Of a DNA stretch of 64,000 bases, positions 37,565 to 64,000 are shown piece by piece. Origin of the DNA: Euglena gracilis (lineage: Eukaryota). The translations under genes were made by a program, and so were the position numbers. The stretch covers positions 22,580,954-22,644,953 of the forward strand of contig CP154954.1 in NCBI GenBank assembly GCA_039621445.1, in the 5' to 3' direction. The notes under the pieces were generated by a model, which saw only the letters and a list, made by a program, of their open reading frames with translations, was not told the DNA's origin and did not search any database. The first letter of the stretch is position 1; the number at the start of each line of letters is the position of its first letter.

Positions 37565-37768
<204 letters not shown>

Positions 37769-37771
<3 letters not shown>

Positions 37772-40700
37772 TACAAGACCAAGGCCCACCAAGACGACGA
37801 GGGCTACCGCACGGGCCTGCTGAAGTGGGCGGAAGCGGTGCGGGCACGCGCAGAGGCCCGCATCACGCAGGCGGCGAGGGAGCACCCCCACGAGCCAGAC
37901 GGGTACCCCAACCTGCAGGAGCAGCTCAGCGCAGCCAAGAGAGCGCTGGTGTTCGGGCCGGAGGACAGGGCACCGCACGCCCTGTTCTTCGCCTGCGGGC
38001 GGCTGTTCGCGGCGAAGCTGCACGAGCGGCTGGAAGCGACCGGGGCATTCGTCCCAGACGCCCGCACCGCTGTCGTACCTGCTGGAGAAGATCAAGGCCC
38101 TGAACGACGAGCTGCAGCTCCTCCACCACCCACGGCTGCCATACCTCTATGGAGCATGGAAGGCCAAGAAGCAAGCCTTCCGCTGGATTGCCGGGACGGC
38201 CCGGAACCAGGACGAAGGCGACCATGAGGAAGAAGAAGGAAAGCCAAAGAACGCCCTCTCCGAAGTGGGCGGCCTCATGGTCAAAGTGCTCCAAGTGGTG
38301 ATGGCTACCCTGCGGCGAAAGGACCGGGAAGCAGTGGGCAAAGGCAACAAGTCCCGCTACTGGATCATCGAGGACATCGATGAGTTCGTGCAGGAGTTCC
38401 GGGTGCTGGCGCAAAGCCGAGCCCTGGGCGCCGTGCCGTGGGCAACGTATGACTTCACCACCATGTACGAGGCGCTGGAGCACGAGCACCTGGTGCACGG
38501 GGTGATGGCAGCGGTGAAGGAAGCCTGGGAGGAGGAAACCACCGGCAAAGCACGGGACACGGGCCAACACCCACGAGACGTGGACCTACGCCTGGGGGCA
38601 GGGGGCTGGCACGAGGCGGCCAAGGTGAAGGACGCCCCCGGAATGCCGTGGTTCACGCTGCCGAGGGTGGAGGACACCCTGCGCAAGATGCTGGCCAACC
38701 TCTACGCGGTGAACGGCGGGGTGGTGCGGAAGCAGCAAAAGGGAGTACCCATGGGGCTGGAGTGCTCCCCGCAGCTGGCCAACCTGTACGCCTACGCCGT
38801 GGAGAGCAGGTGGGTGGACCGAACGGCACCGACCAACGTCCTCATGCGGCGGTACATCGACGACATCATCGTCATGGGACCAGATGCCCTCATCCCCGGG
38901 AAAGGGCTGCCCACCGAGGAGGACTACGGGATGCAGTACAAGTCCACCGCCGAGGAGCCCCACAGCCTCATCTACCTGGGGGTGCGGCTGTTCGTGGACG
39001 ACCGCGGACAAGCCCACTCGGTCCTGCACGACCGTGCAGTGGACTACCCCATCCGGGTGGACCGATACCCCGAGGGCACAACAGTGGCCAACCCAGCCCA
39101 GCTGGCAGGCGTCATCATGGGCCGGTTGGTGGCAGCCCAACGGACATGCAGCCGCATGGATCTGTTCCAAGACGCGGTGGCCGGCATCTTCACCCACGCG
39201 CATCGCAGGGGATACCCACGGAGAATGGTGCACTCCACGTGGACCCGGTTCCTGTGGCGGTACTGGGACGCGGCATCCGTCACCACGCGGGAACTGCGGG
39301 CGTGGTTCCACGACGCGTGGCGAAAGGTGACGGAAGTGGAGGAGGGGGGACAGCGCAGGCCGGCCCCCAAGTGGCCAACGTGGGAAGCCCGCGTACCACT
39401 GCCGCGGGACAGTGGCAGGGGAACACCACAGCACCCACCACCGCGGGACGCAGCAGGGCACCAGGCAGCATGTGAGGGGACCCCCCAGCCCCAAGCAGCA
39501 CAACGGGAGCCCATCGACGACCTCATCGATCTCACCACGCCACCGGGGTCCCCGCCACACGCAAGCCAAGGAGACGGGGAGCCGCAGGGCGGCTCCTCGC
39601 AACCAGCCAGCAAGCTACCGCCCGATGGCACCGCCGCTGATACCGTACCCCCTCCCACCGAGCGGCAGGGGAGGGGTGGGGCCAACCAGGACCGGACGAC
39701 CAGGACAGAGGGGGGCAGGGCAGAAAGGCAACATACCGCCGAGAAGGCCGTGGTCTTCACCGGTGTACCCCACGCGGGGGGCTGCCAGCTCTTCGTCGAC
39801 TTGGGCCGAGAAGGCTGTGCGATGGGGCTGTCCGCCTTCCGAGTCGCTGCCACTGCACGCCCCTCTCGCACAGGAGCGTGCAGTGGGGGGCGCACTCTCC
39901 CCACGAGCACAGCCACCTCACGTTCCTGTCGCCGAAACACGGTGCACAGCGAGCACACAGGAGCGGGAGGTGGCCGGCGCTTCCCCTACACCCACCACAC
40001 AGACATCAGCGGCGACGCCAACCAGCCAGCAGCCGCCAACAACCACAGTGCAGCAGCCGCTGCAAGTGGTCCAGGTGCCCCAACCGTACCCGGTGCCGGT
40101 GCCGGTGCCCACCCCCTGTCCCGTGCCGGTGTACGTCGAGCGCGTGGTGCCGGTACAGATCCCAGTGCCGTACCACGTACCCGTGCCGGTGGTCGTGGAG
40201 CGCGCAGTGCCCACACCGTACCCGGTGCCGGTGCACGTGGAGCGCCTGGTGCCAGTGGAACGCCCGCTCCTGCTGCCGTGGCTGGACACCGGGGCAGTGA
40301 CCGCGCTGCTCCGGGGGGCGAGCGCACAGCTGCCCATGCCAGTCCAACCATTGACCCCACCGGTCCGCAGCACCACCGGGCCGACAAGGGCCCGGTGGCA
40401 GCGGGAGATGGGGCGACCACAGCCCTACCCGGCGGAAGGAGCAGTGGACCCCCAACGGGCACTGCTCATCGAAATGGTGCGATGGATCTGGCAGCAGCAA
40501 CAGCAGCAGCAAGAGAGCCGCCACCTCACCCACCGCGCCACGCTGGCGATCGAAGACGCACCCACCGCCGCCACACCCACATCGCCCGCAGCAGGCACCA
40601 CCCCGGCAGGAGCAGCACCACCGCCAAGCAGCAACCTACCACCACCCGCAACGGAAGGGGCCAGCACCACCGCCACGCCAGCAGCACCACCCGGCAACAC

Positions 40701-42340
40701 CAGCCCCGTGCCCGCAGCAGCAGCAGCAGCGGCAAGCAGCACGCCGGCCCTACCAACACCAACCACAAGCGCCACAAGCGCCACACCGCCACCGAGCGCC
40801 ACCCCCACGCAGGAAGCACAAAGCACCACAGCCACCGAGGAGGCACCGGCAAGAAGCGACCCCATGGCCACAGACCGACTCCTGGGCAACAAGCGCCCAG
40901 TGTCGGTGGTGGTGGAGGAGGCGGCCACACCACAGCCCACCGAAGGGGACGACGCCTCGCAGGCAACCCAACCAAGCCAGCGCAAGAAGAGGCTGTACAC
41001 GCGCTTGGCCGAGTGGCCGGCGGAGTGGCGGGAGCAGTACGAGCGGTTCAAGGCCACGCACAAAGCAAGCGACCGCCGCGAGATGTGGCAGGGGTGGGAC
41101 CAAAGCCTCCAAGACCAAGTGTGGGCAGCCGTCGCCGACAAGCGGAGGGACGAGATCCGCCGATGGAAGGCGATGGAGAACGAAGGCCCAACCCAAGCAG
41201 AAGACCAAGCGAGCAGCACGCGAGAACAGAGGCGGAGGTCCCACACCGGAGCGGAAGAATGACTGGCAGGAAGGCCAGCGCATCGGGGAGGCGAAGCAGC
41301 CAGGCCCAGAAGAGGAAGGGTCGGCAGCGGACCCCCCCGAGGGGCAAGCGGGGAGCCCAAAGAATCACCCGCAACCGGCCTGGGGCGGCTCTCCAGGGGT
41401 ACCTGCCGATCACCGGCAGGGCGTGTCCCGGCACGCCGTCAATCGGGACGTCGAAGCAGTACCCACCAGAACCATGACGCAAAAAATCACAGGCATGCCA
41501 GGCAATGACGGCCTGCCCGGCGCAGAGGACCTCTGCCCCGGGTGGCAGGCGGGGCGCCAGCCTAAGAACCCGCAACCGACCTGGGGCGGATCTCCAGGGG
41601 TACCTGCCAATCACTGGCAGGGCGTGGCCCGACACGCCGTCAAGCGGGACGAAGGAGCAGAAGAACCGTGCCCCAGAAGCAGAAGCCAAGACCAGCACGA
41701 CTGGAAGAAAGGGGCACGGATCGGGGAAGCAAAGAACCCCGGACCACCCCAAAGAGGGTACCAACAGCCCAACCCAAAAGGGGGGGCCCAGCGAGGAGGA
41801 CAACAAACAGGAAAAGGACAGACACAGCCCAGGAAAGGAGGCAAGGGTGGCAAAGGAAACGTCACCCCACAAGGAAGCCGGCAGGGCCAACCCCAAGGAG
41901 AGGGCTGGCAAACAGCACAAAGCACCGGCCGAAAACGCCTCCAAAAGCGCCTCCAAGGGCTCCAACGGGCGCTGCAAGAAATGCAGCAAGAGCTCGACCA
42001 ATGGCGGCAGAATCCGCCCCCGCAGCAGCAGCAGCAACGACCGGACCTAAGGGACGACAACCCCTGGGCCCCCCTGCAGCCACAGCAAAAACGCCGGGGG
42101 CGGAAGAGATCCATTGGGTTTGAACACCCAAGCCGCCAAGCGAGCAGGCAGCCGCCGCCAGAGCAACGAGGAGGACGCGGAGGACGGGGAGGACCGGAGG
42201 CCAAGGACGGGCGACGAAAGGGAAGGGGAGCCCAGCGACAGACACGGGCAGCCACGGGTGACATGCCGGGAGGGTGGGGCCGTGAAAGGTGGCCCACGGC
42301 GGGGGGGGCGAGGGGGGTGGGGGGAGGGGGGGGGACGCCA
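37769..42340 (+). mobile_element. Penelope-like element family A, copy 1 (5'-truncated inside the RT N-terminal region, frameshifted)
   Basis: Start matches copy 3 at ~61227. RT motifs TYDFTTMY, KGVPMGLECSPQLANLY and RYIDD in ORF 38265-41477. Confidence 0.92.
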
Positions 42341-45300
42341 CCCCACAACGGTGGGAGGGAGGCGGGAAAGTCGCGCGGCACACCAGCCCCACGACAGCCG
42401 CCCCATACCCAGTCCACGGGAAGCACGCGAGGCAGGTGCAGAGGAGCACAGGAAGGCAGGCGTGGACGTGGAGGTCATGGGAGGACTGGCACGTGAACGC
42501 CGTGCAGCGGCGTTCCTGGCGCAAGAGCCCGATTCGGCGACTGCTGGAGCTCCGGCACACCGGGCCAAATCCTTCGCCCCGGAAGCAGTGACCACCTGGC
42601 ACGGGATGATCTACGGGGCATACCATTTCCCAACGGGGAAGTGGTACGTGGGCCAGACGGTGAACACCATCCGCCAGCGGGCACGAGAGCACTGGTACGC
42701 ACGAAAGTCGGCGCGGGACTTCCTGCACCTGGCGCTGGCAGACGACCCGGACCCGATGACCTGGCTGGCCCTGCCACTGGAGATCATCCCCAAGGAGCTG
42801 TGGCGATGTCCAGAGGCAGACCGACAAGCAGGGTGGCGGAAGAAAGAGCGGGCGCTCTTCCGGGCGGTGGCCACCCCGAGGGAGAAGTACTGGGTGGACA
42901 AGCTGAGGTCCATGTGGCCAAAGGGATGGAACTCAGCGTACCCGGGCAAGCCCGCAAGCGCGGGCCACCTGCCCCCCAGTGGAGCAACCGCGCCACGGGA
43001 ACCAGCACGGGACCTGGAGGCGGCAAAGAGCGCCATCCGGCAGTGGCAGGCAGACCCGAGGGCAACAAGGCGGTGGCTGCACGTGCTGGCACGCGAGGAC
43101 CTGGTGGAGATCCTGGAGGGGCTGGAGAAGGGACTGCGCCCAACAGAGCAGACGGCGACAACGGCTGCGATCGCAGCAGAAGCCCGGGAGGCACTCCGAA
43201 AGCGCAAGGCGGAGAAGAAGGCCCGGGATTTCGTCCGCTTCCTGTACGGGCACCCCATCGCCGAGAAGATGGCCCTGCCGGACATCATCCGCGCCCCCGA
43301 GGTGTACAAGCTCCACCCAGAGCCGGAGGTGGGGGCAGCCATCATGGTGGTGCACAAGTTCGCCCCGCAGATCGCCAGCGCACTGTTCAACTACAAGGAC
43401 TGGGCCATGCACCCACAGCCGATGGACGCCGACGGGGAGGAGCACTGCCCCTGGATTGCCGGGACGGCCCGGAACCAGGACGAAGGCGACCATGAGGAAG
43501 AAGAAGGAAAGCCAAAGAACGCCCTCTCCGAAGTGGGCGGCCTCATGGTCAAAGTGCTCCAAGTGGTGATGGCAACCCTGCGGCGAAAGGACCGGGAAGC
43601 AGTGGGCAAAGGCAACAAGTCCCGCTACTGGATCATCGAGGACATCGATGAGTTCGTGCAGGAGTTCCGGGTGCTGGCGCAAAGCCGAGCGCTGAGCGCC
43701 GTGCCGTGGGCAACGTATGACTTCACCACCATGTACGAGGCGCTGGAGCACGAGCACCTGGTGCACGGGGTGATGGCAGCGGTGAAGGAGGCCTGGGAGG
43801 AGGAAACCATCGGCAAAGCACGGGACACGGGCCAACATCCACGAGACGTGGACCTACGCCTGGGGGCAGGGGGCTGGCACGAGGCGGCCAAGGTGAAGGA
43901 CGCCCCCGGAATGCCGTGGTTCACGCTGCCGAGGGTGGAGGACACCCTGCGCAAGATGCTGGCCAACCTCTACGCGGTGAACGGCGGGGTGGTGCGGAAG
44001 CAGCAAAAGGGAGTACCCATGGGGCTGGAGTGCTCCCCGCAGCTGGCCAACCTGTACGCCTACGCCGTGGAGAGCAGGTGGGTGGACCGAACGGCACCGA
44101 CCAACGTCCTGATGCGGCGGTACATCGACGACATCATCGTCATGGGACCAGATGCCCTCATCCCCGGGAAAGGGCTGCCCACCGAGGAGGACTACGGGAT
44201 GCAGTACAAGTCCACCGCCGAGGAGCCCCACAGCCTCATCTACCTGGGGGTGCGGCTGTTCGTGAGCGACCGCGGACAAGCCCACTCGGTCCTGCACGAC
44301 CGTGCAGTGGACTACCCCATCCGGGTGGACCGATACCCCGAGGGCACAACAGTGGCCAACCCAGCCCAGCTGGCAGGCGTCATCATGGGCCGGTTGGTGG
44401 CAGCCCAACGGACATGCAGCCGCATGGATCTGTTCCAAGACGCGGTGGCCGGCATCTTCACCCACGCGCATCGCAGGGCATACCCCCGGAGAATGGTGCA
44501 CTCCACGTGGACCCGGTTCCTGTGGCGGTACTGGGACGCGGCATCCGTCACCACGCGGGAACTGCGGGCGTGGTTCCACGACGCGTGGCGAAAGGTGACG
44601 GAAGCGGAGGAGGGGGGACAGCGCAAGCCGGCCCCCAAGTGGCCAACGTGGGAAGCCCGCGTACCACTGCCGCGGGACAGTGGCAGGGGAACACCACAGC
44701 ACCCACCACCGCGGGACGCAGCAGGGCACCAGGCAGCATGTGAGGGGACCCCCCAGCCCCAAGCAGCACAACGGGAGCCCATCGACGACCTCATCGACCT
44801 CACCACGCCACCGGGGTCCCCGCCACACGCAAGCCAGGCGACGGGGAGCCGCAGGGCGGCTCCTCGCAACCAGCCAGCAGCTACCGCCCGATGGCACCGC
44901 CGCTGATACCGTACCCCCTCCCACCGAGCGGCAGGGGAGGGGTGGGGCCAACCAGGACCGGACGACCAGGACAGAGGGGGGCAGGGCAGAAAGGCAACAT
45001 ACCGCCGAGAAGGCCGTGGTCTTCACCGGTGTACCCCACGCGGGGGGCTGCCAGCTCGTCGTCGACTTGGGCCGAAAAGGCTGTGCGATGGGGCTGTCCG
45101 CCTTCCGAGTCGCTGCCACTGCACGCCCCTCTCGCACAGGAGCGTGCAGTGGGGGGCGCACTCTCCCCACGAGCACAGCCACCTCACGTCCCTGTCGCCG
45201 AAACACGGTGCACAGCGAGCACACAGGAGCGGGAGGTGGCCGGCGCTTCCCCCACACCCACCACACAGACATCAGCGGCGACGCCAACCAGCCAGCAGCC

Positions 45301-47921
45301 GCCAACAACCACAGTGCAGCAGCCGCTGCAAGTGGTCCAGGTGCCCCAACCGTACCCGGTGCCGGTGCCGGTGCCCACCCCCTGTCCCGTGCCGGTGTAC
45401 GTCGAGCGCGTGGTGCCGGTACAGATCCCAGTGCCGTACCACGTACCCGTGCCGGTGGTCGTGGAGCGCGCAGTGCCCACACCGTACCCGGTGCCGGTGC
45501 ACGTGGAGCGCCTGGTGCCAGTGGAACGCCCACTCCCGCTGCCGTGGCTGGACACCGGGGCAGTGACCGCGCTGCTCCGGGGGGCGAGCGCACAGCTGCC
45601 CATGCCAGTCCAACGCCTGATCCAAGCGGTCAGCAGCACCACCGGGCCGACGAGGGCCCGGTGGCAGCGGGAGATGGGGCGACCACAGCCTTACCCGGCG
45701 GAAGGAGCAGTGGACCCCCAACGGGCACTGCTCATCGAAATGGTGCGATGGATCTGGCAGCAGCAACAACAGGAGCGGCAAGTGAGCTGCCACCTCCCCC
45801 ATCGCGGCACGCTGGCGATCGAAGACGCACCCACCGCCGCCACACCCACATCGCCCGCGGCAGGCACCACCCCCGCAGGCAGCACCACCACCAAGCCCAC
45901 CACCACCAACCCGCAACGGAAGGGGCCACCACCACCGCCACGCCAGCAGCACCACCAGGCAGCACCAGCCCCGCGCCCGCAGCAGCAGCAGCAAGCAGCA
46001 CGCCGGCCCCACCAACACCAACCACAAGCGCCACACCGCCACCGAGCGCCACCCCCACGCAGGAAGCACAAAGCACCACAGCCACCGAGGAGGCACCGGC
46101 AAGAAGCGACCCCATGGCCACAGACCGACTCCTGGGCAACAAGCGCCCAGTGTCGGTGGTGGTGGAGGAGGCGGCCACACCACAGCCCACCGAAGGGGAC
46201 GACGCCTCGCAGGCAACCCAACCAAGCCATCGCAAGAAGAGGCTGTACACGCGCTTGGCCGAGTGGCCGGCAGAGTGGCGGGAGCAGTACGAGCGGTTCA
46301 AGGCCACGCCCAAAGCAAGCGACCGCCACGAGATGTGGCAGGGGTGGGACCAAAGCCTCCAAGACCAAGTGTGGGCAGCCGTCGCCGACAAGCGGAGGGA
46401 CGAGATCCGCCGATGGAAGGCGATGGAGAACGAAGGCCCACCAACCCAAGCAGAAGGCCAAGCCAGAAGCACGCGAGAAGAGAGGCGGAGGTCCCACACC
46501 GGAGCGGAAGAAAGGTGGAGAACCCACCAGCCACGACTGGCAGGAAGGCCAGCGCATCGGGGAGGCGCAGCAGCGAGCCGCAGACGCGGAAGGGTCGGCA
46601 GCGGACCCCCCCGAGGGGCAAGCGGGGAGCCCAAAGAATCACCCGCGACCGGCCTGGGGCGGCTCTCCAGGGGTCCCTGCCGATCACCGGCAGGGCGTGT
46701 CCCGGCACGCCGTCAATCAGGACCCAAACAAAACAGAACCCACCAGCACCATGACAGCACAAAACAAAGGCATGCCAGGCAATGACGGCCTGCCCGGCGC
46801 AGAGGACCTCTGCCCCGGGTGGCAGGCGGGGCGCCAGCCTAAGAACCCGCAACCGACCTGGGGCGGATCTCCAGGGGTACCTGCCAATCACTGGCAGGGC
46901 GTGGCCCGACACGCCGTCAAGCGGGACGAAGGAGCAGAAGAACCGTGCCCCAGAAGCAGAAGCCAAGACCAGCACGACTGGAAGAAAGGGGCACGGATCG
47001 GGGAAGCAAAGAACCCCGGACCACCCCAAAGAGGGTACCAACAGCCCAACCCAAAAGGGGGGCCCAACGAGGAGGACAACAAACAGGAAAAGGACAGACA
47101 CAGCCCAGGAAAGGAGGCATGGGTGGCAAAGGAAACGTCACCCCACAAGGAAACCGGCAGGGCCAACCCCAAGGAGAGGGCTGGCAAACAGCACAAAGCA
47201 CCGGCCGAAAACGCCTCCAAAAGCGCCTCCAAGGGCTCCAACGGGCGCTGCAAGAAATGCAGCAAGAGCTCGACCAATGGCGGCAGAATCCGCCCCCGCA
47301 GCAGCAGCAGCAACGACCGGACCTAAGGGACGACAACCCCTGGGCCCCCCTGCAGCCACAGCAACAACGCCGGGGGCGGAAGAGATCCATTGGGTTTGAA
47401 CCCCCAAGCCGCCAAGCGAGCAGGCAGGCCAGAGCCAGAGCAACGAGGCGGACGCGGAGTGCGGGGAGGACGAGGACGTGGCCTAGGCGACGTAGCCCAA
47501 GATCGACACGGCCGCAGATCCCCGAAACCCGCGTGCCGGGCACGGAACTGCCATCCGTGCCCGTCATGCGGGTACCAGACGAGGCGTACCCCGCCGCCGG
47601 GGTCCGGGGGTGGGGGGGGCGCTCGCCGGCGGTGGCATCCCCGGGCCCCCGGGCCTGCGCGCGGGTGCGTGAAAGCTGCGGTGGGAGCGCCGCCCCCCCA
47701 GCACGCACGCACGACCACACACACCACCAGCAGGCAAGGGAGGGGGGGGGGGGAAGGGGCAGCCCAGCGCGCCAGACAGACGGGCAGCCACCGGAGGCCA
47801 AGGGAGGGGGGAGGGGGAAAGGGAAGGGGCAGCCAAGGGCGCCAGACAGACGGGCAGCCACCGGGGGACAGGAGGCCAAGGGAGGGGGGAGGGGGAAAGG
47901 GAAAGGCAAGGGAAACCCACG

Positions 47922-47929
<8 letters not shown>
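42340..47929 (+). mobile_element. Penelope-like element family A, copy 2 (tandem to copy 1; 594-nt in-frame deletion; ends ggtaaaa+(GA)n)
   Basis: ORF 42114-44906 has GIY-YIG motif GMIYGAYHFPTGKWYVGQT..RQRAREH followed by RT. Confidence 0.92.
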
Positions 47930-47954
<25 letters not shown>

Positions 47955-48705
47955 TGAGAGGCGCATGGGACTGAAGCGCTTCACCACACAGCCCAAGACG
48001 GCTAGGGGCTAGGAGTCTGGGGTGAGACGACGCCGCCACCGCCCACGGCGAAAAGAATATGGGCTCCCGCCAGCTGACGCGGTTTACAAACATCAGCTAG
48101 GCCACCCCACGCAGCAACCGAGTGGTGCTTCTCGGCCTGCAAGGACTCGAGCGCAAGTCCCCCGCACAGCCTCCAGTGCAAGTCGGCACAGAGGAAGGAG
48201 CCACGTGGGTGAACGTGACCTCCTGAGTCGCGGGTCGGGCTCCCCATACCTTGCTTGAGGTCGAAGCAAGTGGATCTATGCGGGCTGTCGCTCCGGGCAG
48301 GCTGGCCACTATCTGCGTGCAGGAGGCGGGCTGACGGGGTGCCAGAACACCCATCGGCGCCGGCCGTGGACCAGAGTATCCCGTGGTGACCACCTTCACG
48401 CCAAGGAGTGGGGCGAGTGGCCCCCGGGGTCCCGCTCCTGCAACCGGAGTTCCTGGGCCGTTCCTGGGGGTGGACGGCAGCACCCGAGGCCATGCAACAC
48501 GCGGAGCCTCTCCAGGTGGGTGCCCACGGGGCTTTATCTCGCCGCCTGGACAGCCGTGGGTGGCCCTGAGGGTCCGCATACCCTTGGGGTCCATGACTCG
48601 CCCACCCGCGGACATGAGTGCCCCGTCACCAGCGGTCTGCCCCACCAGCCGGGCGTCGGGGGCATCGACAAGCCGCCCGGCTGGATCCGAAACCGCCTGG
48701 CTCTA

Positions 48706-50965
48706 GCACCACGCAACACCTACCACCCCCGCAGGAGGGCCAGCACCCCACCCCACGCCAGCAGCACCACCCCCAACACCACCCGTGCCAGCGCAGCAGC
48801 AGCAGGCGGCAAGCAGCACGCCGGCCCAACAACCCAACCACAAGCCACACCGCCACCGAGCGCCACCCCCCCAGGCAGGAAGCAAAGCCCACACACCGAG
48901 GAGCACGGCAAGCGACCCCATGGCCACAGCCGACTCCTGCAACAAGCGCCCCGTGTCGGTGGTGTGGAGAGCGCCACACCACGCCCGCCGAAGGGGACGA
49001 CGCCTCGCGGCAACCCACCAGAGCGCAAGAAGAGGCTGTACACGCGCTTGGCCGTGGCCGGCGAGTGGCGGGCAGTACAGCGGTCAAGGCCAGCACAAAG
49101 CAACGACCGCCGCGAGATGTGGCAGGTGGGACCAAAGCCTCCCCCAAGTGTGGGCAGCCGTCCCGACAAACGGAGGGACGAGATCCGCCGATGGAAGGCG
49201 ATGGAGACGAAGGCCCAACCCAGCAGAAGCAAGCGAGCACACGCAGAAAGAGGCGGAGGTCCCACACCGGCGGAAGAAGAAGGTGGAGAACCCACCCCCA
49301 CGACTGGCAGGAGCCACGCATCGGGGGCGAAGCACCAGGCCCAGAAGAGAATGGTCGGCAGCGGACCCCCCGAGGGGCAAGCGGGAGCCCAAATCCCCGC
49401 AACCCTGCGGCTCTCCAGGGTACCTGCCGATCAACCGCAGGGCGTGTCCCGCCCGCCGTCAATCGGGACCCCAAACAATACCCCCAGAACCATGACGCAA
49501 AAAGCAAGGCATGCCAGCGACGGCCTGCCCGGCAGAGACCTCTGCCCCGGTGGCAGGGGGCGGGCGCCAGCCAAGAACCCCGCAACCGACCTGGGGCGAT
49601 CTCCAGGGGTACCTGCCAATCACGCAGGCGTGGCCCGACACGCCGTCAAGCGTGACGAAGCAGAAGAACCGTGCCCCAGAACCACAAGCCACGACCAGCA
49701 CGAATGGAAGAGGGGCACGATCGGGAAGCAAAGCCCCGACACCCCAAGAGTGTACCACAGCCCCAACCCAAAAGGGGGGCCCAACGAGGAGACAACAAAC
49801 GGAAAGACAGAAGCCGGAACAAGCCCCCCGGAGCCCACCTCCGGCTGGCAAAAGGCTGCTGGCTGGAGAGCTGCTGGCGCCCCCCCCGCCCCCGGGGGGT
49901 GGGAGAGGGGTCCCTGGACGGGCCGCGGGTCGAGAAAAACAAAATCTCACGCCAGACAGAGGGTGGAGCTAGGTCAGGGGCGCTGTAAGGGAAGGGGCTG
50001 TGCAGAGGGGGAAAACAGGGATAAGACCTGGGACAGCCCGTTGGGCTGGCCTGCCCGGCCGGTGGGCCGCCTCGGCAGCTGCCCGCCTCCGGCCGGCGCC
50101 AACCCCGACCCTGGGGGGGGAGCCCCTCCCGAAGGGCTGCTGGCTGGCGAAGCTCGGGGCTGGACGACCCCCGCGTGGGAGGCCCTCCGGCAGAAACCCT
50201 GCACACACCAGAAGGAGGCGGGTGGCAAAGGAAACGTCACCCCACAAGGCCGGCAGGGCCAACCCCAAGGAGAGGCTGGCAAACAGCACAAAGCACCGGC
50301 CCAAAACGCCTCCAAAAGCGCCTCCAAGGGCTCCAACGCGCTGCAGAAAGCAGCAAGAGCTCGACCAATGGCGGCAGATCCGCCCCCCCCGCAGCGGCGA
50401 CCGGAATAGGGACGACAACCCCTTGGCCCCCCCCTGCAGCCACAGCAACAACGCCGGGGCGGAACAGATCCATTGGGTTTGAACCCCCAATCCGCCAGCA
50501 GGCAGCCGCCACGCTGCAACAAGGAGGACGGGAGGACGAGGCCGAGACGAGGCGACGGGCCCAAGATCGCACTCCACGATCCCCGAAACCCGCGTGCCGG
50601 GCACGAACTGCCAGCCGTGCCCGTCATGCGGTACCAGAACGAGGTGTACCACGCCGACGGGCCCTGGGGTGGGGGCTCGCCGGCGGTGGCATCCCCGGCC
50701 CCCAGCCCTGGCGGGGGCCCCGGGGTGGCGTGAAACGATGCGGCCCATGGGGGAGCGCCCCCCCAAGCACGCCACCACGAACGCAAGCCGCCCCCGTGGC
50801 AGGATGAGCCCCCCCCTCGCGTCCAGACAGACTTCCCGCGGACCGGAGGCCAAGGGAGGGAGGGGAAAGGGAAGGGGCAGCCCAGCGCCAGACAGACGGG
50901 ATCCACCGGGGGACAGGAGGCCAGGGAGGGACGGGGGAGGAAAGACAAGCAAGAAACCCCGTGGC
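48706..50965 (+). pseudogene. Heavily degraded 3' part of family A with an unrelated insert at ~49815-50210
   Basis: Colinear with ~45830-47920 but with many 1-3 nt indels (decay or poor consensus). Confidence 0.8.
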
Positions 50966-51021
50966 CGTCCGTCCGCGCCCCCCTCTCCTCCTCGAGTTTT
51001 CGCCCCCCCCCCCCTCGTGGG

Positions 51022-59065
<8,044 letters not shown>

Positions 59066-59082
59066 GAGAGAGAGAGAGAGAG

Positions 59083-62000
59083 AGAGGGCTGGCAAACAGC
59101 ACAAAGCACCGGCCGAAAACGCCTCCAAAAGCGCCTCCAAGGGCTCCAACGGGCGCTGCAAGAAATGCAGCAAGAGCTCGACCAATGGCGGCAGAATCCG
59201 CCCCCGCAGCAGCAGCAGCAACGACCGGACCTAAGGGACGACAACCCCTGGGCCCCCCTGCAGCCACAGCAACAACGCCGGGAGCGGAAGAGATCCATTG
59301 GGTTTGAATCCCCAAGCCGCCAGAGCGAGAGAGAGACCAGCAGAGCAACGAGGAGGACGCGGAGGACGGGGAGGACGAGGTCGTGGACGAGGCGACGGAG
59401 CCCAAGATCGACACGGCCATGCAGATCCCCGAAACCCGCGTGCCGGGCACGGAACATGCCAGCCGTGCCCGTCATGCGGGTACCAGAACGAGGTGTACCA
59501 CGCCGACGGGGCCCTGGGGGGTGGGGGGCTCGCCGGCGGTGGCATCCCCGGGCCCCCGGGCCCTGGCGCGGGGTCCGGGGGTGGCGTGAAAGGCGTGCGG
59601 AGCCCATGGGGGGAGCGCCGCCCCCCCAGCACGCACGCACGCACGGGGACCGCCACACACCCACCAGCAGGCAAGGGAGGGGGGAGGGGGAAGGGGCAGC
59701 CCAGCGCGCCAGACAGACGGGCAGCCCCCGGAGGACCGGAGGCCAAGGGAGGGGGGAGGGGGAAAGGGAAGGGGCAGCCCAGAGCGCCAGACAGACGGGC
59801 AGCCACCGGGGGACAGGAGGCCAAGGGAGGGGGGAGGGGGAAAGGGAAAGGCAAGGGAAACCCACGTGGTAAAAGAGAGAGCGACGCGGGCAACCGCGGC
59901 CACCCCACAACGGGTGGAGGGAGAGTGACGGTGAGCGTCGCGCGGCACACGCCAGCCCGCGACGACAGGCCGCTCCCATACCCAGTCCACGGGAAGCACG
60001 CGAGGCAGGTGGAGAGGAGCACGGGAAGGCAGGCGTGGACGTGGAGGTCATGGGAGGACTGGCACGTGAACGCCGTGCAACGGCGTTCCTGGCGCAAGAG
60101 CCCGATTCGGCGACTGCTGGAGCTCCGGCACGCTGAGGCACAAGCCAACGGAGACCGGGCCAATTACTTCTCCCCGGAGGCAGTGACCACCTGGCACGGG
60201 ATGATCTACGGGGCGTACCATTTCCCAACAGGGAAGTGGTACGTGGGCCAGACGGTCAACACCATCCGCCAGCGGGCACGAGAGCACTGGTACGCACGAA
60301 AGTCGGCGCGGGACTTCCTGCACCTGGCGCTGGCAGACGACCCGGACCCGATGACCTGGCTGGCCCTGCCACTGGAGATCATCCCCAAGGAGCTGTGGCG
60401 ATGTCCAGAGGCAGACCGACAAGCAGGGTGGCGGAAGAAAGAGCGGGCGCTCTTCCGGGCGGTGGCCACCCCGAGGGAGAAGTACTGGGTGGACAAGCTG
60501 AGGTCCATGTGGCCAAAGGGATGGAACTCAGCGTACCCGGGCAAGCCCGCAAGCGCGGGCCACCTGCCCCCCAGTGGAGCAACCGCGCCACGAGAACCAG
60601 CACGGGACCTGGAGGCGGCAAAGAGCGCCATCCGGCAGTGGCAGGCAGACCCGAGGGCAACAAGGCGGTGGCTGCACGTGCTGGCGCGCGAGGACCTGGT
60701 GGAGATCCTCGAGGGGCTGGAGAAAGGGCTGCGCCCAACAGAGCAGACAGCGACAACGGCTGCGATCGCAGCAGAAGCCCGGGAGGCACTCCGAAAGCGC
60801 AAGGCGGAGAAGAAGGCCCGGGATTTCGTCCGCTTCCTGTACGGGCACCCCATCGCCGAGAAGATGGCCCTGCCGGACATCATCCGCGACCCCGAGGTGT
60901 ACAAGCTCCACCCAGAGCCGGAGGTGGGGGCAGCCATCATGGTGGTGCACAAGTTCGCCCCGCAGATCGCCAGCGCACTGTTCAACTACAAGGACTGGGC
61001 CATGCACCCACAGCCGATGGACGCCGACGGGGAGGAGCACTGCCCCTGCCGGACGCAGGTGCGACCGAACGCCACGCTGGTGGAGGGGCACGTCCTCTCC
61101 ACAGACCCCGACGAGCTGGCGTCCCCGTACCTGAGGGAGATCCTCAGCAAGGGGAAGAAGTACCGCCTGCGGCTGCCCATCTCGTCAGTGCTGGCGCGCC
61201 TCGACGACGGCCTCCGCCAGTACGTGGAGTACAAGACCAAGGCCCACCAAGACGACGAGGGCTACCGCACGGGCCTGCTGAAGTGGGCGGAAGCGGTGCG
61301 GGCACGCGCAGAGGCCCGCATCACGCAGGCGGCGAGGGAGCACCCCCACGAGCCAGACGGGTACCCCAACCTGCAGGAGCAGCTCAGCGCAGCCAAGAGG
61401 GCGCTGGTGTTCGGGCCGGAGGACAGGGCACCGCACGCCCTGTTCTTCGCCTGCGGGCGGCTGTTCGCGGCGAAGCTGCACGAGCGGCTAGAAGCGACCG
61501 GGGCATTCGTCCCAGACGCCCGCCCGCCGGCGGACCTGCTGGAGCAGATCAAGGCCCTGAACGACGAGCTGCAGCTCCTCCACCACCCACGGCTGCCATA
61601 CCTCTATGGAGCATGGAAGGCCAAGAAGCAAGCCTTCCGCTGGATTGCCGGGACGGCCCGGAACCAGGACGAAGGCGACCATGAGGAAGAAGAAGGAAAG
61701 CCAAAGAACGCCCTCTCCGAAGTGGGCGGCCTCATGGTCAAAGTGCTCCAAGTGGTGATGGCAACCCTGCGGCGAAAGGACCGGGAAGCAGTGGGCAAAG
61801 GCAACAAGTCCCGCTACTGGATCATCGAGGACATCGATGAGTTCGTGCAGGAGTTCCGGGTGCTGGCGCAAAGCCGAGCGCTGAGCGCCGTGCCGTGGGC
61901 AACGTATGACTTCACCACCATGTACGAGGCGCTGGAGCACGAGCACCTGGTGCACGGGGTGATGGCAGCGGTGAAGGAGGCCTGGGAGGAGGAAACCATC

Positions 62001-64000
62001 GGCAAAGCACGGGACACGGGCCAACATCCACGAGACGTGGACCTACGCCTGGGGGCAGGGGGCTGGCACGAGGCGGCCAAGGTGAAGGACGCCCCCGGAA
62101 TGCCGTGGTTCACGCTGCCGAGGGTGGAGGACACCCTGCGCAAGATGCTGGCCAACCTGTACGCGGTGAACGGGGGGGTGGTGCGGAAGCAGCAAAAGGG
62201 AGTACCCATGGGGCTGGAGTGCTCCCCGCAGCTGGCCAACCTGTACGCCTACGCCGTGGAGAGCAGGTGGGTGGACCGAACGGCACCGACCAACGTCCTG
62301 ATGCGGCGGTACATCGACGACATCATCGTCATGGGACCAGATGCCCTCACCCCCGGGAAAGGGCTGCCCACCGAGGAGGACTACGGGATGCAGTACAAGT
62401 CCACCGCCGAGGAGCCCCACAGCCTCATCTACCTGGGGGTGCGGCTGTTCGTGGACGACCGCGGACAAGCCCACTCGGTCCTGCACGACCGTGCAGTGGA
62501 CTACCCCATCCGGGTGGACCGATACCCCGAGGGCACAACAGTGGCCAACCCAGCCCAGCTGGCAGGCGTCATCATGGGCCGGTTGGTGGCAGCCCAACGG
62601 ACATGCAGCCGCATGGATCTGTTCCAAGACGCGGTGGCCGGCATCTTCACCCACGCGCATCGCAGGGGATACCCACGGAGAATGGTGCACTCCACGTGGA
62701 CCCGGTTCCTGTGGCGGTACTGGGACGCGGCATCCGTCACCACGCGGGAACTGCGGGCGTGGTTCCACGACGCGTGGCGAAAGGTGACGGAAGCGGAGGA
62801 GGGGGGACAGCGCAAGCCGGCCCCCAAGTGGCCAACGTGGGAAGCCCGCGTACCACTGCCGCGGGACAGTGGCAGGGGAACACCACAGCACCCACCACCG
62901 CGGGACGCAGCAGGGCACCAGGCAGCATGTGAGGGGACCCCCCAGCCCCAAGCAGCACAACGGGAGCCCATCGACGACCTCATCGACCTCACCACGCCAC
63001 CGGGGTCCCCGCCACACGCAAGCCCAGGCGACGGGGAGCCGCAGGGCGGCTCCTCGCAACCAGCCAGCAGCTACCGCCCGATGGCACCGCCGCTGATACC
63101 GTACCCCCTCCCACCGAGCGGCAGGGGAGGGGTGGGGCCAACCAGGACCGGACGACCAGGACAGAGGGGGGCAGGGCAGAAAGGCAACATACCGCCGAGA
63201 AGGCCGTGGTCTTCACCGGTGTACCCCACGCGGGGGGCTGCCAGCTCGTCGTCGACTTGGGCCGAAAAGGCTGTGCGATGGGGCTGTCCGCCTTCCGAGT
63301 CGCTGCCACTGCACGCCCCTCTCGCACAGGAGCGTGCAGTGGGGGGCGCACTCTCCCCACGAGCACAGCCACCTCACGTCCCTGTCGCCGAAACACGGTG
63401 CACAGCGAGCACACAGGAGCGGGAGGTGGCCGGCGCTTCCCCCACACCCACCACACAGACATCAGCGGCGACGCCAACCAGCCAGCAGCCACCAACAACC
63501 ACAGTGCAGCAGCCGCTGCAAGTGGTCCAGGTGCCCCAACCGTACCCGGTGCCGGTGCCGGTGCCCACCCCCTGTCCCGTGCCGGTGTACGTCGAGCGCG
63601 TGGTGCCGGTACAGATCCCAGTGCCATACCACGTACCCGTGCCGGTGGTCGTGGAGCGCGCAGTGCCCACACCGTACCCGGTGCCGGTGCACGTGGAGCG
63701 CCTGGTGCCAGTGGAACGCCCACTCCCGCTGCCGTGGCTGGACACCGGGGCAGTGACCGCGCTGCTCCGGGGGGCGAGCGCACAGCTGCCCATGCCAGTC
63801 CAACGCCTGATCCAAGCGGTCAGCAGCACCACCGGGCCGACGAGGGCCCGGTGGCAGCGGGAGATGGGGCGACCACAGCCTTACCCGGCGGAAGGAGCAG
63901 TGGACCCCCAACGGGCACTGCTCGTCGAAATGGTGCGATGGATCTGGCAGCAGCAACAGCAGCAGCAAGAGAGCCGCCCCCTCACCCATCGCGCCACGCT
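59083..64000 (+). mobile_element. Penelope-like element family A, copy 3, with upstream pseudo-LTR; most intact copy, runs off the window
   Basis: 59083-59874 repeats the 3' end of copy 2 and continues into the GIY-YIG and RT regions. Confidence 0.93.
59235..64000 (+). CDS. PLE polyprotein: RGG/Cys region, GIY-YIG endonuclease (~60195-60540), CxC..H linker, RT + thumb (~61130-62780), articulin-like repeat (~63520-63720); absent from the ORF track because no stop occurs in the window
   Basis: Translated by hand and by comparison with copies 1 and 2, the frame is open from the TAA at 59232-59234 to the window end. It contains MIYGAYH..WYVGQT, HCPC..GHVLSTD, LSKGKKYR, LPYLYGAWKAKK..FRWI, DFTTMY, GVPMG and YIDD. 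An N-terminal endonuclease is characteristic of the Naiad/Chlamys group of PLEs. Confidence 0.88.

What the first reader, a model, noticed from the sequence alone, without database searches (positions are those of the whole stretch)
40065..63720. Articulin/alveolin-like VPV repeat domain inside retroelement proteins
Seen: VVQVPQPYPVPVPVP..VYVERVVPVQIPVPYHVPVPVVVERAVP in A (~40065-40265, 45330-45535, 63520-63720) and ERVVIVERQVPVPVREPVFVDRVIERVVPVPVQVPVEVRVP in B (~57538-57710). It is in frame with RT in copy 3 and in B. Known: Val/Pro repeats with alternating charges typify euglenid pellicle articulins. Inference: a captured or convergent self-assembly module that could scaffold the RNP in place of a Gag/ORF1 protein.
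Basis: partly seen in the sequence, partly recalled or inferred. Interest (0 to 1): 0.7.

Follow-up and report, generated by a model that had tools for sequence, protein, structure and literature searches.

The report
Valine-proline module in Penelope-like retroelements
The Val-Pro-Val stretch is a real, conserved 60-70-residue piece of the long protein of a group of Penelope-like jumping genes; it looks like the skeleton proteins (articulins) of the Euglena cell surface in make-up, but nothing shows that it was taken from them or that it replaces a Gag-type protein.

Summary
Observation confirmed. Four Val/Pro-rich stretches (40030-40269, 45296-45538, 63486-63728, 57551-57742) are the only ones in the window in six frames; 0 of 100 dinucleotide shuffles give any. 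They lie in GC-rich, (GA)n-targeted Penelope-like elements with an N-terminal GIY-YIG nuclease (Naiad/Chlamys type), families A and B. In A3 and B the module shares one open frame with RT; A1 and A2 each carry a private 1-base indel. The module sits in a fixed order: RT thumb, variable linker, VPV, KKRK, four-helix domain, SHDWxEGxRxGEAxNPGP, basic region with one long helix. Nine environmental relatives carry it; others have DnaJ or OTU there. A uses GTG/CCG, B GTC/CCC. In the B group it is as conserved as the folded domain (0.56 vs 0.53; linkers 0.24-0.30). It meets the VPV, dyad and G/A-poor criteria of articulins but not length, charge or architecture. There is no IMCp match, and likeness to epiplastin-like proteins does not exceed dipeptide composition. 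AlphaFold gives no structure for it. Self-assembly remains untested. Earlier notes of this scan on the same genome reported a J-domain Penelope-like family and 2A motifs in other retroelements, not this module.

The parts
37772..42336 (+). Family A copy A1: 5'-truncated, starts directly after (GA)n, joined head-to-tail to A2 (acts as its pseudo-LTR)
42337..47937 (+). Family A copy A2: full unit with a 594-base internal deletion near 43430, ends ...CACGTGGTAAAA followed by (GA)n
48520..50964 (+). Degraded 5'-truncated A-like copy (A4). The start is uncertain. It has no VPV stretch left and ends at the same unit position as A2
51179..55740 (+). Nine head-to-tail copies of a 525-base unit that shares the 3' end and 5' start of family A: probable non-autonomous derivative
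55877..59066 (+). Family B copy: 5'-truncated inside RT, starts directly after a long (GA)n (55745-55876), ends ...CCAATCAAGAA followed by (GA)n
59088..59882 (+). Last ~800 bases of a family A unit lying upstream of A3 (pseudo-LTR)
59883..64000 (+). Family A copy A3: starts at the unit's 5' end, open frame intact through the VPV module, runs off the window
60201..60560 (+). GIY-YIG nuclease of A3 (N-terminal to RT)
   Evidence: Pfam GIY-YIG E 0.0029, 18.3 bits, below the 22.6 cut-off. G, I, Y, Y, G, R, H, E, N columns invariant in 5 sequences
61032..61052 (+). CxC motif (EEHCPCR) between nuclease and RT in A3
62307..62324 (+). RT active-site motif RYIDDI of A3 (also at 38850, 44118 and, in B, 56063)
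40030..40269 (+). VPV module, copy A1
45296..45538 (+). VPV module, copy A2
63486..63728 (+). VPV module, copy A3 (in frame with RT)
57551..57742 (+). VPV module, family B (in frame with RT and with all downstream motifs)
57920..58144 (+). KKRK (NLS-like) plus four-helix 'EWPAEWR' domain of B. Counterparts start at 40984 (A1) and 46234 (A2)
58172..58222 (+). HDWHEGARIGEADHPGP motif of B. Family A has HDWKKGARIGEAKNPGP at 41696-41746 and 46973-47023, and a degenerate copy at 46532-46573
58553..58675 (+). Long predicted helix in the basic region after the ...PGP motif of B. A comparable helix-like stretch of A lies at 41939-42004, 47215-47280 and 59123-59188

Best explanation
The VPV stretch is a conserved, translated low-complexity module of the polyprotein of a lineage of N-terminal-GIY-YIG Penelope-like retroelements. 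By earlier notes of this scan, which I did not check, the host is Euglena gracilis. The module occupies a slot between the RT thumb and a KKRK + four-helix domain + ...GEAxNPGP motif. In related elements that slot holds other accessory domains (DnaJ, OTU, PHD).

Shown: it is coding, it is in frame with RT, it is kept in two families with different codons, and it is as conserved as the neighbouring folded domain.

Inferred: it is an extended beta/polyproline-type segment (V at every second place, V/I-flanked Glu/Asp-Arg dyads) that came to resemble articulins by convergence. I take its most likely role to be a protein-protein contact segment that lets copies of the polyprotein associate side by side, or that holds the C-terminal domain away from the RT. 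I do not think it is a Gag/ORF1 substitute, because the element has its own basic, long-helix region after the NPGP motif.
For: Coding and in frame. In relatives P0049, P0066 and P0063, RT and the (in P0063 degenerate) module are in one predicted protein.

Protein-level conservation: family A uses GTG (20 of 25 Val) and CCG (13 of 25 Pro), while B uses GTC (13 of 23) and CCC (12 of 16).

Same order of parts in A, B and relatives: VPV, LAIEAP-like motif, acidic stretch, KKRK, EWPAEWR domain, HDW..NPGP.

Within the B group (5 sequences) mean pairwise identity is 0.56 over the 64 VPV columns. It is 0.53 over the 75 columns of the folded domain and 0.24/0.30 in the flanking linkers.

A versus B module score is 114 against 90.6 +/- 10.6 in dipeptide-preserving shuffles (18 of 1000 reach it). 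For A versus P0049, 1 of 1000 reach it. For B versus P0066, 7 of 1000.

In a tree of 31 RT fragments, the rows scored as carrying the module fall in two sub-clades of one 17-row clade (SH-aLRT 93).

Accessory-slot reading: DnaJ in P0045 and P0146, OTU in P0140, P0146 and P0157, PHD in P0157.

ORF1-like alternative in the same frame: net charge +21 in 182 residues and a 41-residue helix at pLDDT 91-97, conserved with P0028 at 54 % over 149 residues in frame.

Articulin-type features: 8 (A) and 7 (B) overlapping VPV units, 4 and 5 dyads, V+I 35-43 %, G+A+S+T 0-4 %. These compare with Goodenough et al. 2018 (PMC6212826, sections 6, 9 and 42 read; Tables S1/S2 searched).
Against: No direct evidence of any interaction. 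AlphaFold2 with an 8-row alignment gives pLDDT 42-56 and no secondary structure for the module, which fits a disordered linker just as well. A low-complexity segment inflates identity: chance identity from its composition is roughly 0.2, by my own estimate and from no call. The A-versus-B excess over dipeptide shuffles is modest (z 2.2), and A versus P0027, P0028 and P0063 is not above shuffles (137, 223 and 876 of 1000 reach the score).

Close relatives of B in the RT tree lack the module (P0012/P0171, P0026, P0045). It is therefore dispensable, or was gained more than once.

The module is 60-70 residues, against a mean of 485 for the seven Euglena gracilis epiplastin ABD domains. Charged residues are 10-23 % against 24-39 % there.

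In family A the frame changes between the helical domain and the first HDW motif in both A1 and A2, and contigs break there, so the full architecture is shown in one frame only for B and its relatives.
Confidence: 0.4

Rival explanations
1. Neutral low-complexity linker. The VP-rich stretch is a by-product of GC-rich, T-poor, microsatellite-prone DNA between two functional domains and has no function beyond joining them.
For: The elements are 62-70 % GC with a strong A>T skew and contain other family-specific repeats in the same linker region (four GVTPPRIPPPGSPGGP-like units in B; GRGKG repeats in A). AlphaFold2 sees no structure. Several relatives lack the module.
Against: 0 of 100 dinucleotide shuffles give such a stretch. 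A and B encode it with different codons. It is conserved like the folded domain and about twice as well as the real linkers beside it. An alignable core (V[DE]R.[VI]ERVV.VPVQVPV) is shared across families.
Confidence: 0.2
2. The module is an articulin-like self-assembling scaffold that acts as the element's Gag/ORF1 equivalent. It could do so as a separate product: translated from the upstream pseudo-LTR and released at the ...NPGP motif, or cut from the C-terminus.
For: Articulin-type criteria are met. In P0176 (1151 aa) one frame runs M...VPV, KKRK, helical domain, AHDWHEGARLGEADHPGP, basic region, long helix, GIY-YIG, CxC. That is the order expected if translation starts in the pseudo-LTR. 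In Penelope and Chlamys-3_cRei the transcription start lies in the pseudo-LTR (PMC8557442, section 10 read). In A3 the nuclease frame is open across the unit junction and has no ATG before the GIY-YIG core.
Against: No assembly was shown or predicted. The module is about 7 times shorter than Euglena ABD domains. A basic region with a long helix, the usual make-up of ORF1-type proteins, is present separately. The ...GEAxNPGP motif does not fit the canonical D[V/I]ExNPGP (the canonical form is recalled, from no call), and B itself has HPGP.
Confidence: 0.15
3. Host mimicry or capture. The module derives from, or imitates, host articulins and docks the retroelement protein onto the pellicle skeleton.
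For: If the host is Euglena (earlier notes, not checked by me), its 80K/86K articulins have ABD domains with V+I 38-39 %, P 15-16 %, R over K, and some Q, H and Y (rows 6.2 and 6.4). This is close to module B (V+I 42-43 %, P 23-24 %, R only). The language-model features of module B lie nearest to clusters named 'inner membrane complex protein' (score 0.90, 13 of 30 hits). The tool's own recognition value is low (1282), so this is only a lead.
Against: No IMCp match. No articulin appeared among 276 candidates at E<=0.01. A KKRK motif follows the module, which points to the nucleus rather than the cortex (inference). The module is shared by two families at 38 % RT identity, so any capture would be old. 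The 12-residue period of articulins (abstract of PMC2289617) is seen only in B-type modules (lags 6/12/18) and not in A (lags 20/14).
Confidence: 0.1

Closest known systems
Naiad/Chlamys clade of Penelope-like elements with N-terminal GIY-YIG (Craig, Yushenova, Rodriguez & Arkhipova 2021, PMC8557442; abstract, sections 9 and 10 and found passages read)
   Same: GIY-YIG upstream of RT, CxC motif between them, partial tandem copies giving pseudo-LTRs, frequent 5' truncation, insertion at microsatellites, no canonical hammerhead, internal tandem repeats, accessory domains in some families (PHD, SAP, a Josephin-like C-terminal extension, a zf-CCHC upstream ORF).
   Different: The target here is (GA)n, where that paper reports (CA)n and (C)n for Chlamys. 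That paper does not mention euglenids, proline or low-complexity modules (0 occurrences of 'euglen', 'proline' and 'low-complexity'). The long extension VPV, KKRK, four-helix domain...NPGP, basic long-helix region is not described there. Placement in a tree with reference Naiad/Chlamys RTs was not done.
Articulins / epiplastins (Marrs & Bouck 1992, PMC2289617, abstract only; Goodenough et al. 2018, PMC6212826)
   Same: Repeated VPV units, V/I-flanked acid-base dyads, V+I about 35-43 %, near absence of G and A, no predicted helix.
   Different: 60-70 residues instead of hundreds. Fewer charged residues and more proline. Embedded in an RT polyprotein instead of a head/medial/tail skeleton protein. 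No IMCp profile match. No similarity beyond dipeptide composition to the one epiplastin-like group that I could test.
Epiplastin-like proteins outside epiplast-bearing organisms (Insecta, Basidiomycetes, Caulobacter; Goodenough et al. 2018, sections 32 and 33)
   Same: Precedent for articulin-type VPV/dyad strings in proteins unrelated to the pellicle, which those authors take as HGT or convergence. The only database hits of module A (P0006-P0009) have that repeat style.
   Different: Those are stand-alone proteins with modules of some 270 residues. That P0006-P0009 are the insect group is my guess from their repeats: their source gives no name or taxon.
2A/StopGo-bearing non-LTR retrotransposons
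   Same: A short conserved motif ending in NPGP inside a long retroelement frame, followed by a separate functional region.
   Different: The motif here is [IFLM]GEAxNPGP preceded by SHDW[HK]EG, not D[V/I]ExNPGP. It sits in a Penelope-like element. Activity is untested.

Membership tests
Articulin subclass of epiplastins (Goodenough et al. 2018) | More than 3 VPV units in the acid-base-dyad (ABD) domain | tested here: met
   A: 8 overlapping / 6 non-overlapping. B: 7 / 4. 3-7 in the relatives with a clear module, except P0049 with 1.
Articulin subclass of epiplastins (Goodenough et al. 2018) | Acid-base dyads, usually flanked by V or I and at least two residues apart | tested here: met
   A: VERV, VERA, VERL, VERP. 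B: ERV, VERQ, VREP, VDRV, IERV. R is used, never K.
Articulin subclass of epiplastins (Goodenough et al. 2018) | Restricted composition: V+I about a third or more, G and A nearly absent, S and T low, charged residues about 35 % (24-39 % in the seven E. gracilis entries) | tested here: inconclusive
   V+I 35 % (A) and 43 % (B), G+A+S+T 4 % and 0 %: met. Charged 11 % (A) and 23 % (B): below the published range.
Articulin subclass of epiplastins (Goodenough et al. 2018) | Long medial ABD domain (average about 200 aa overall; mean 485 aa in E. gracilis) between unrelated head and tail domains of a skeleton protein | tested here: not met
   Modules of 62-68 aa (41-76 in relatives) inside an RT polyprotein.
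Articulin subclass of epiplastins (Goodenough et al. 2018) | Predicted beta-strand/random coil, no alpha-helix | tested here: inconclusive
   AlphaFold2: no helix and no strand, pLDDT 42-56. The predictors used in the paper were not available.
Articulins (Marrs & Bouck 1992) | 12-residue repeat, consensus VPVPV--V-- | tested here: inconclusive
   Self-similarity peaks at lags 6/12/18 in B and P0027. In A they are at 20/14, and in P0176 and P0177 at 10.
Pfam IMCp (PF12314), the profile used to find epiplastins | Match to the profile | tested here: not met
   No match at E<=10 for either module or for P0027, P0028, P0037, P0066 and P0006, and none at E<=1 for the whole ORFs.
Articulins of Euglena | Sequence homology to the 80K/86K articulins; location in the pellicle skeleton | not testable with these tools
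   No Euglena articulin sequence could be handed to a tool and no genome is held. The word-seeded search returned no articulin among 276 candidates.
N-terminal EN+ Penelope-like elements (Naiad/Chlamys) | GIY-YIG nuclease N-terminal to the RT, with conserved R, H, E, N | tested here: met
   Pfam GIY-YIG E 0.0029, 18.3 bits, below the cut-off of 22.6. G, I, Y, Y, G, R, H, E, N invariant in 5 aligned sequences. It lies about 700 residues before RYIDDI in one frame.
N-terminal EN+ Penelope-like elements (Naiad/Chlamys) | CxC motif between nuclease and RT | tested here: met
   EEHCPCR at 61032-61052. CxC is kept in the consensus of 5 sequences.
N-terminal EN+ Penelope-like elements (Naiad/Chlamys) | Pseudo-LTRs from partial tandem copies, 5' truncation, microsatellite targets | tested here: met
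   A1+A2 and 59088-59882+A3 are head-to-tail. A1, A4 and B are 5'-truncated. (GA)n lies at the starts of A1 and B and at the ends of A2 and B.
N-terminal EN+ Penelope-like elements (Naiad/Chlamys) | No canonical hammerhead ribozyme | tested here: met
   0 Rfam matches at gathering score in 36000-64000, both strands.
N-terminal EN+ Penelope-like elements (Naiad/Chlamys) | Insertion-in-fingers domain; RT groups with reference PLEs; CCHH finger absent (Chlamys) or present (Naiad) | not tested
   Only Pfam RVT_1 was matched (E 1e-7). No reference PLE sequences were at hand.
2A / StopGo peptides | C-terminal D[V/I]ExNPGP (recalled consensus) and ribosome skipping | tested here: not met
   NPGP is present in family A and in P0027, P0028, P0045, P0140, P0175 and P0177. 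B, P0063 and P0176 have HPGP. The residues before it are GEAx, not D[V/I]Ex. Skipping itself cannot be tested here.

The most novel reading that the evidence does not exclude
These Penelope-like elements are read as an endless polyprotein across head-to-tail copies. Translation entering from the pseudo-LTR first makes a small articulin-like VPV + NLS + four-helix protein. A non-canonical StopGo motif (...GEAxNPGP) releases it before the basic long-helix region and the nuclease-RT are made. The element would thus carry a self-assembling, pellicle-protein-like 'ORF1' of a kind not known from any retroelement.
Probability: 0.12. Interest if true: 0.8.

Novelty: new variant of a known kind. Interest (0 to 1): 0.5.

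Why it matters
Penelope-like elements with an N-terminal nuclease were described in 2021 from green algae, spike mosses, slime moulds and animals. This window shows a lineage with a much longer protein, probably in a euglenid. That protein has a swap-in slot after the RT, holding the VPV module, DnaJ, OTU or PHD in different relatives. After the slot come a small new helical domain and a strongly conserved NPGP-ending motif.

The VPV module is a compact, natural test case for what articulin-type Val/Pro/dyad strings do outside the pellicle. Such strings have also arisen in insects, fungi and Caulobacter without a known function. If the module self-associates, 60-70 residues would define a minimal assembly unit for this poorly understood class of skeleton proteins.

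Tried and rejected
1. Oligomer prediction of the module (four copies, alignment A2 residues 8-80). Each time the queue was full or the machine gave no answer, so no job ran and the self-assembly question stays open.

2. Whole genome: none is held. No consensus of many copies and no dN/dS could be made. Within the window the three A copies are 98-99 % alike and differ by one residue in the module, too few for a test.

3. Related DNA loci in metagenome contigs: two scans (alignment A5; P0037) confirmed none. Alignment A2 was not conserved enough to search with.

4. Fold of the four-helix domain: the best of 48,161 chains reached Z 5.6 and all were generic helical matches. The protein atlas gave no usable hit and Pfam none.

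5. Sequencing runs: only assembled contigs were available. Four runs hold the element, including one metatranscriptome (24 contigs laid, depth in 28 of 30 bins). By the tool's own warning this does not show transcription.

6. Taxon of the relatives: none of the ten clusters looked up carries a taxon or an informative name.

7. The idea that the three 'head' fragments were separate insertions was dropped. 47174-47937 is simply the 3' end of A2, and 50270-50964 is the 3' end of the degraded copy A4.

8. The left 37 kb of the window: 5 of the 7 ORFs of 250 aa or more were scanned and gave no informative Pfam match.

9. Literature: no paper in the library holds 'Euglena gracilis' + genome + retrotransposon + Penelope. 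The single paper with 'Euglena gracilis' + 'transposable elements' + Penelope is about wheat aldolases. The single paper with retrotransposon + articulin is unrelated.

Full report
**What is there.** Bases 38000-64000 differ sharply from the rest of the window: 62-70 % GC and a strong excess of A over T on the + strand. Because T is scarce, long open frames occur in all three + frames, so an open frame alone means little here. A six-frame scan of the whole window for Val/Pro-rich 40-residue windows finds four stretches and no others: 40030-40269, 45296-45538, 63486-63728 and 57551-57742. In 100 dinucleotide-preserving shuffles of 38000-64000 no such window ever appears, against 7 observed.

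**The elements.** Self-comparison and the junction sequences resolve the region into these pieces:
- A1 (37772-42336, 5'-truncated), joined head-to-tail to A2.
- A2 (42337-47937, a full unit with a 594-base deletion).
- A degraded 5'-truncated A-like copy ending at 50964.
- Nine tandem copies of a 525-base unit (51179-55740).
- Family B (55877-59066, 5'-truncated inside RT).
- The last ~800 bases of an A unit (59088-59882).
- A3 (59883 to the window's end).

A1 and B start directly after (GA)n. A2 ends ...CACGTGGTAAAA followed by (GA)n, and B ends ...CCAATCAAGAA followed by (GA)n.

The A3 frame 59298-63998 holds several diagnostic features. There is a GIY-YIG core: Pfam E 0.0029, below the cut-off, with G, I, Y, Y, G, R, H, E, N invariant in five sequences. 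There is a CxC motif (EEHCPCR) and an RT (RVT_1 E 1e-7, RYIDDI). No Rfam family, and so no hammerhead, reaches its gathering score.

The features found are an N-terminal GIY-YIG, CxC, pseudo-LTRs from partial tandems, 5' truncation, microsatellite targets and no hammerhead. These are the features given for the Naiad/Chlamys clade of Penelope-like elements (PMC8557442, abstract and section 9). That paper does not mention euglenids (0 occurrences). Earlier notes of this scan call the genome Euglena gracilis; I did not test that.

**Is the module translated with the RT?** In A3 and in B it lies in the same uninterrupted frame as the RT. A1 has one extra base at 39612 and A2 lacks one base after 44835. 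At each site the other two copies agree with A3. A contig of run X16 covering 44627-45168 has one letter more than A2.

Protein-level comparison of B with A shows the same frame conserved on both sides of the module. The RT is 38 % identical, and a downstream domain is 38 % identical over about 100 residues. In the environmental relatives P0049, P0066 and P0063, the RT thumb and the module (degenerate in P0063) are in one predicted protein.

**Architecture around it.** B, and relatives found by a full phmmer search (468 hits at E<=0.001, best 150 listed) and two word-seeded searches, share one order of parts:
1. RT thumb.
2. An acidic IDDLL-like motif.
3. A variable, often repetitive linker.
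4. The VPV module.
5. A LAIEAP-like motif.
6. An acidic stretch.
7. KKRK.
8. An EWPAEWR...WD..LQ.QV domain.
9. SHDW[HK]EGxR[IFLM]GEAx[NH]PGP.
10. A basic region with a helix.

AlphaFold2 (8-row alignment) predicts the EWPAEWR domain as four helices at pLDDT 90-93. It gives the VPV module pLDDT 42-56 and no secondary structure. The helical domain has no informative structural match (best Z 5.6 of 48,161 chains).

The 182 residues after ...PGP in B carry 37 K+R against 16 D+E. They hold one 41-residue helix at pLDDT 91-97. They are 54 % identical in frame to P0028 over 149 residues.

In family A all four sequencing runs add a G behind 47056, which puts the NPGP motif and the helix-like LQKRLQGLQ... 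stretch in one frame. The step from the helical domain to the first HDW motif changes frame in both A1 and A2, and contigs break there. That part of family A stays unresolved.

**How widespread is the module?** Of the 150 listed relatives, 44 either extend 200 or more residues beyond the thumb or match the C-terminal part. Among these:
- P0027, P0028, P0037, P0049 and P0066 carry a clear module by my threshold.
- P0029 carries one by alignment; it is cut at its start.
- P0063 and P0022 have degenerate versions.
- P0175, P0176 and P0177 came from the other two searches.

Others carry different domains at this place: DnaJ (P0045, P0146), OTU (P0140, P0146, P0157) and PHD (P0157). P0012/P0171 and P0026 have only acidic or Ser-rich linkers.

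I built a quick tree of 31 RT fragments: 29 of the listed proteins chosen by me for length, plus A3 and B. The C-terminal-only fragments could not be included. In this tree the A group (A3, P0049, P0066) and the B super-group fall in one 17-row clade (SH-aLRT 93). Members without the module sit inside the B super-group. This fits an old module with later losses or replacements. It also fits exchange between elements, and the tree cannot decide.

**Is the similarity more than composition?** Three results bear on this.

First, A encodes the module mostly with GTG and CCG, and B with GTC and CCC. The DNA repeat is therefore not what is conserved.

Second, in the B group (B, P0027, P0028, P0029, P0037) mean pairwise identity is 0.56 in the module, 0.53 in the folded domain, 0.74 in the HDW..PGP motif and 0.24-0.30 in the linkers.

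Third, local alignment scores were compared with dipeptide-preserving shuffles:

| Comparison | Result |
|---|---|
| B vs its close relatives | z 6-10 |
| A vs B | z 2.2 (18 of 1000 shuffles reach the score) |
| A vs P0049 | 1 of 1000 |
| B vs P0066 | 7 of 1000 |
| A vs P0027 | 137 of 1000 (not above shuffles) |
| A vs P0028 | 223 of 1000 (not above shuffles) |
| A vs P0063 | 876 of 1000 (not above shuffles) |
| A vs P0006-type VP-repeat protein | z 1.3 (33 of 300) |
| B vs P0006-type VP-repeat protein | z 1.9 (15 of 300) |

The modules of A and B are thus probably homologous, given the shared position, the collinear flanks and a modest excess score. The likeness to epiplastin-like proteins is at the level of composition and dipeptides.

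[quoted passage not shown] Goodenough et al. define epiplastins by the following:
- A medial domain of acid-base dyads flanked by V/I.
- V about 25 % and I about 9 %.
- Charged residues about 35 %.
- Almost no G or A.
- Predicted beta-strand/coil structure.

They define articulins as those with more than 3 VPV units.

The modules here have 7-8 VPV units, 4-5 dyads (always with R), V+I of 35-43 % and 0-4 % G+A+S+T. However, they have only 11-23 % charged residues and are 62-68 residues long. The seven E. gracilis ABD domains have a mean length of 485 residues and 24-39 % charged residues.

Even-numbered lags dominate the self-similarity of all modules. A 6/12/18 pattern occurs in B-type modules only.

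Pfam IMCp, the profile used by those authors, does not match. A language-model search puts module B nearest to clusters named 'inner membrane complex protein' (score 0.90, 13 of 30 hits), but with a low recognition value.

The only database hits of module A were four proteins of one group with VPYPVEK-type repeats (4 of 276 candidates). These resemble the insect epiplastin-like proteins of that paper (section 33), but their source gives no name.

The module therefore works out as articulin-like in sequence style but fails the family's tests of length, architecture and profile. I could not compare it directly with a Euglena articulin.

**What it most likely does.** Shown: the module is translated with the RT, is kept under constraint in two families, is dispensable in some relatives, and is not predicted to fold on its own.

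Inferred: V at alternate positions with P and the V/I-flanked dyads suit an extended strand or polyproline-like rod. In articulins such strings are thought to pair into sheets or filaments (PMC6212826, section 42).

I take a side-by-side contact or spacing segment of the polyprotein as the most likely role (0.4). A function-free linker comes second (0.2).

Against the Gag idea stands the separate basic region with a long helix. In its favour stands P0176, where one frame runs from the VPV module through ...HPGP and the basic helix region into GIY-YIG and CxC. That is what translation starting in a pseudo-LTR would give. Transcription starts in the pseudo-LTR in Penelope and in Chlamys-3_cRei. 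In A3 the nuclease frame is open across the unit junction and has no ATG before the GIY-YIG core.

**Limits.** No genome and no raw reads were available. The oligomer prediction never ran. All relatives are unnamed environmental or run-derived predictions. The supplementary texts with the articulin sequences of PMC6212826 were not read; only its Tables S1 and S2 were searched.

**Verdict.** This is a real and conserved accessory module in an undescribed, probably euglenid, branch of a known retroelement class. The articulin likeness is real in style and unproven in ancestry and function.

Noticed in passing
41696-41746, 46973-47023, 58172-58222 (degenerate copy 46532-46573): A 17-residue motif, SHDW[HK]EGxR[IFLM]GEAx[NH]PGP, is the best conserved part of the C-terminal extension (0.74 mean identity in the B group). 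It recurs in P0027, P0028, P0045, P0063, P0140, P0175, P0176 and P0177. It ends like a 2A/StopGo peptide but has GEAx, not D[V/I]Ex, before NPGP. It is followed in frame by a conserved basic region.
   Followed up: partly
51179-55740: Nine head-to-tail copies of a 525-base unit. Its junction (…CTCGTGGGAA(GA)n…GCGGCCACCCCACAACGGGTGGA…) matches the 3' end plus 5' start of family A (63 bases, 79 %, to 59858-59918). It is probably a non-autonomous derivative mobilised by family A, as described for Chlamys in Chlamydomonas.
   Followed up: partly
37700-37771, 47938-47955, 55745-55876, 59067-59087: The starts of A1 and B and the ends of A2 and B all abut (GA)n, so these elements seem to target GA microsatellites. 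The shared 5' start contains a small inverted repeat (CCACCC...GGGTGG).
   Followed up: partly
59298-60200: In A3 the frame of the nuclease stays open backwards across the unit junction into the GRGKG/RGG-rich end of the upstream partial copy. It holds no ATG before the GIY-YIG core, while a conserved WTWRSWEDW motif lies upstream of that ATG. The start of translation is unclear.
   Followed up: no
57920-58144 (A: from 40984 and 46234): A small Trp-rich four-helix domain (EWPAEWR...WD..LQ.QVW), preceded by KKRK, is predicted with pLDDT above 90. It has no Pfam match, no atlas hit and no informative structural match.
   Followed up: yes
relatives P0045, P0140, P0146, P0157 (no window coordinates): Related elements carry DnaJ, OTU-type deubiquitinase and PHD domains at the place where A and B have the VPV module.
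   Followed up: partly
56700-57500: The RT-to-VPV linker of B holds four copies of a ~45-residue repeat (…GVTPPRIPPPGSPGGP…) that is not conserved in relatives.
   Followed up: no
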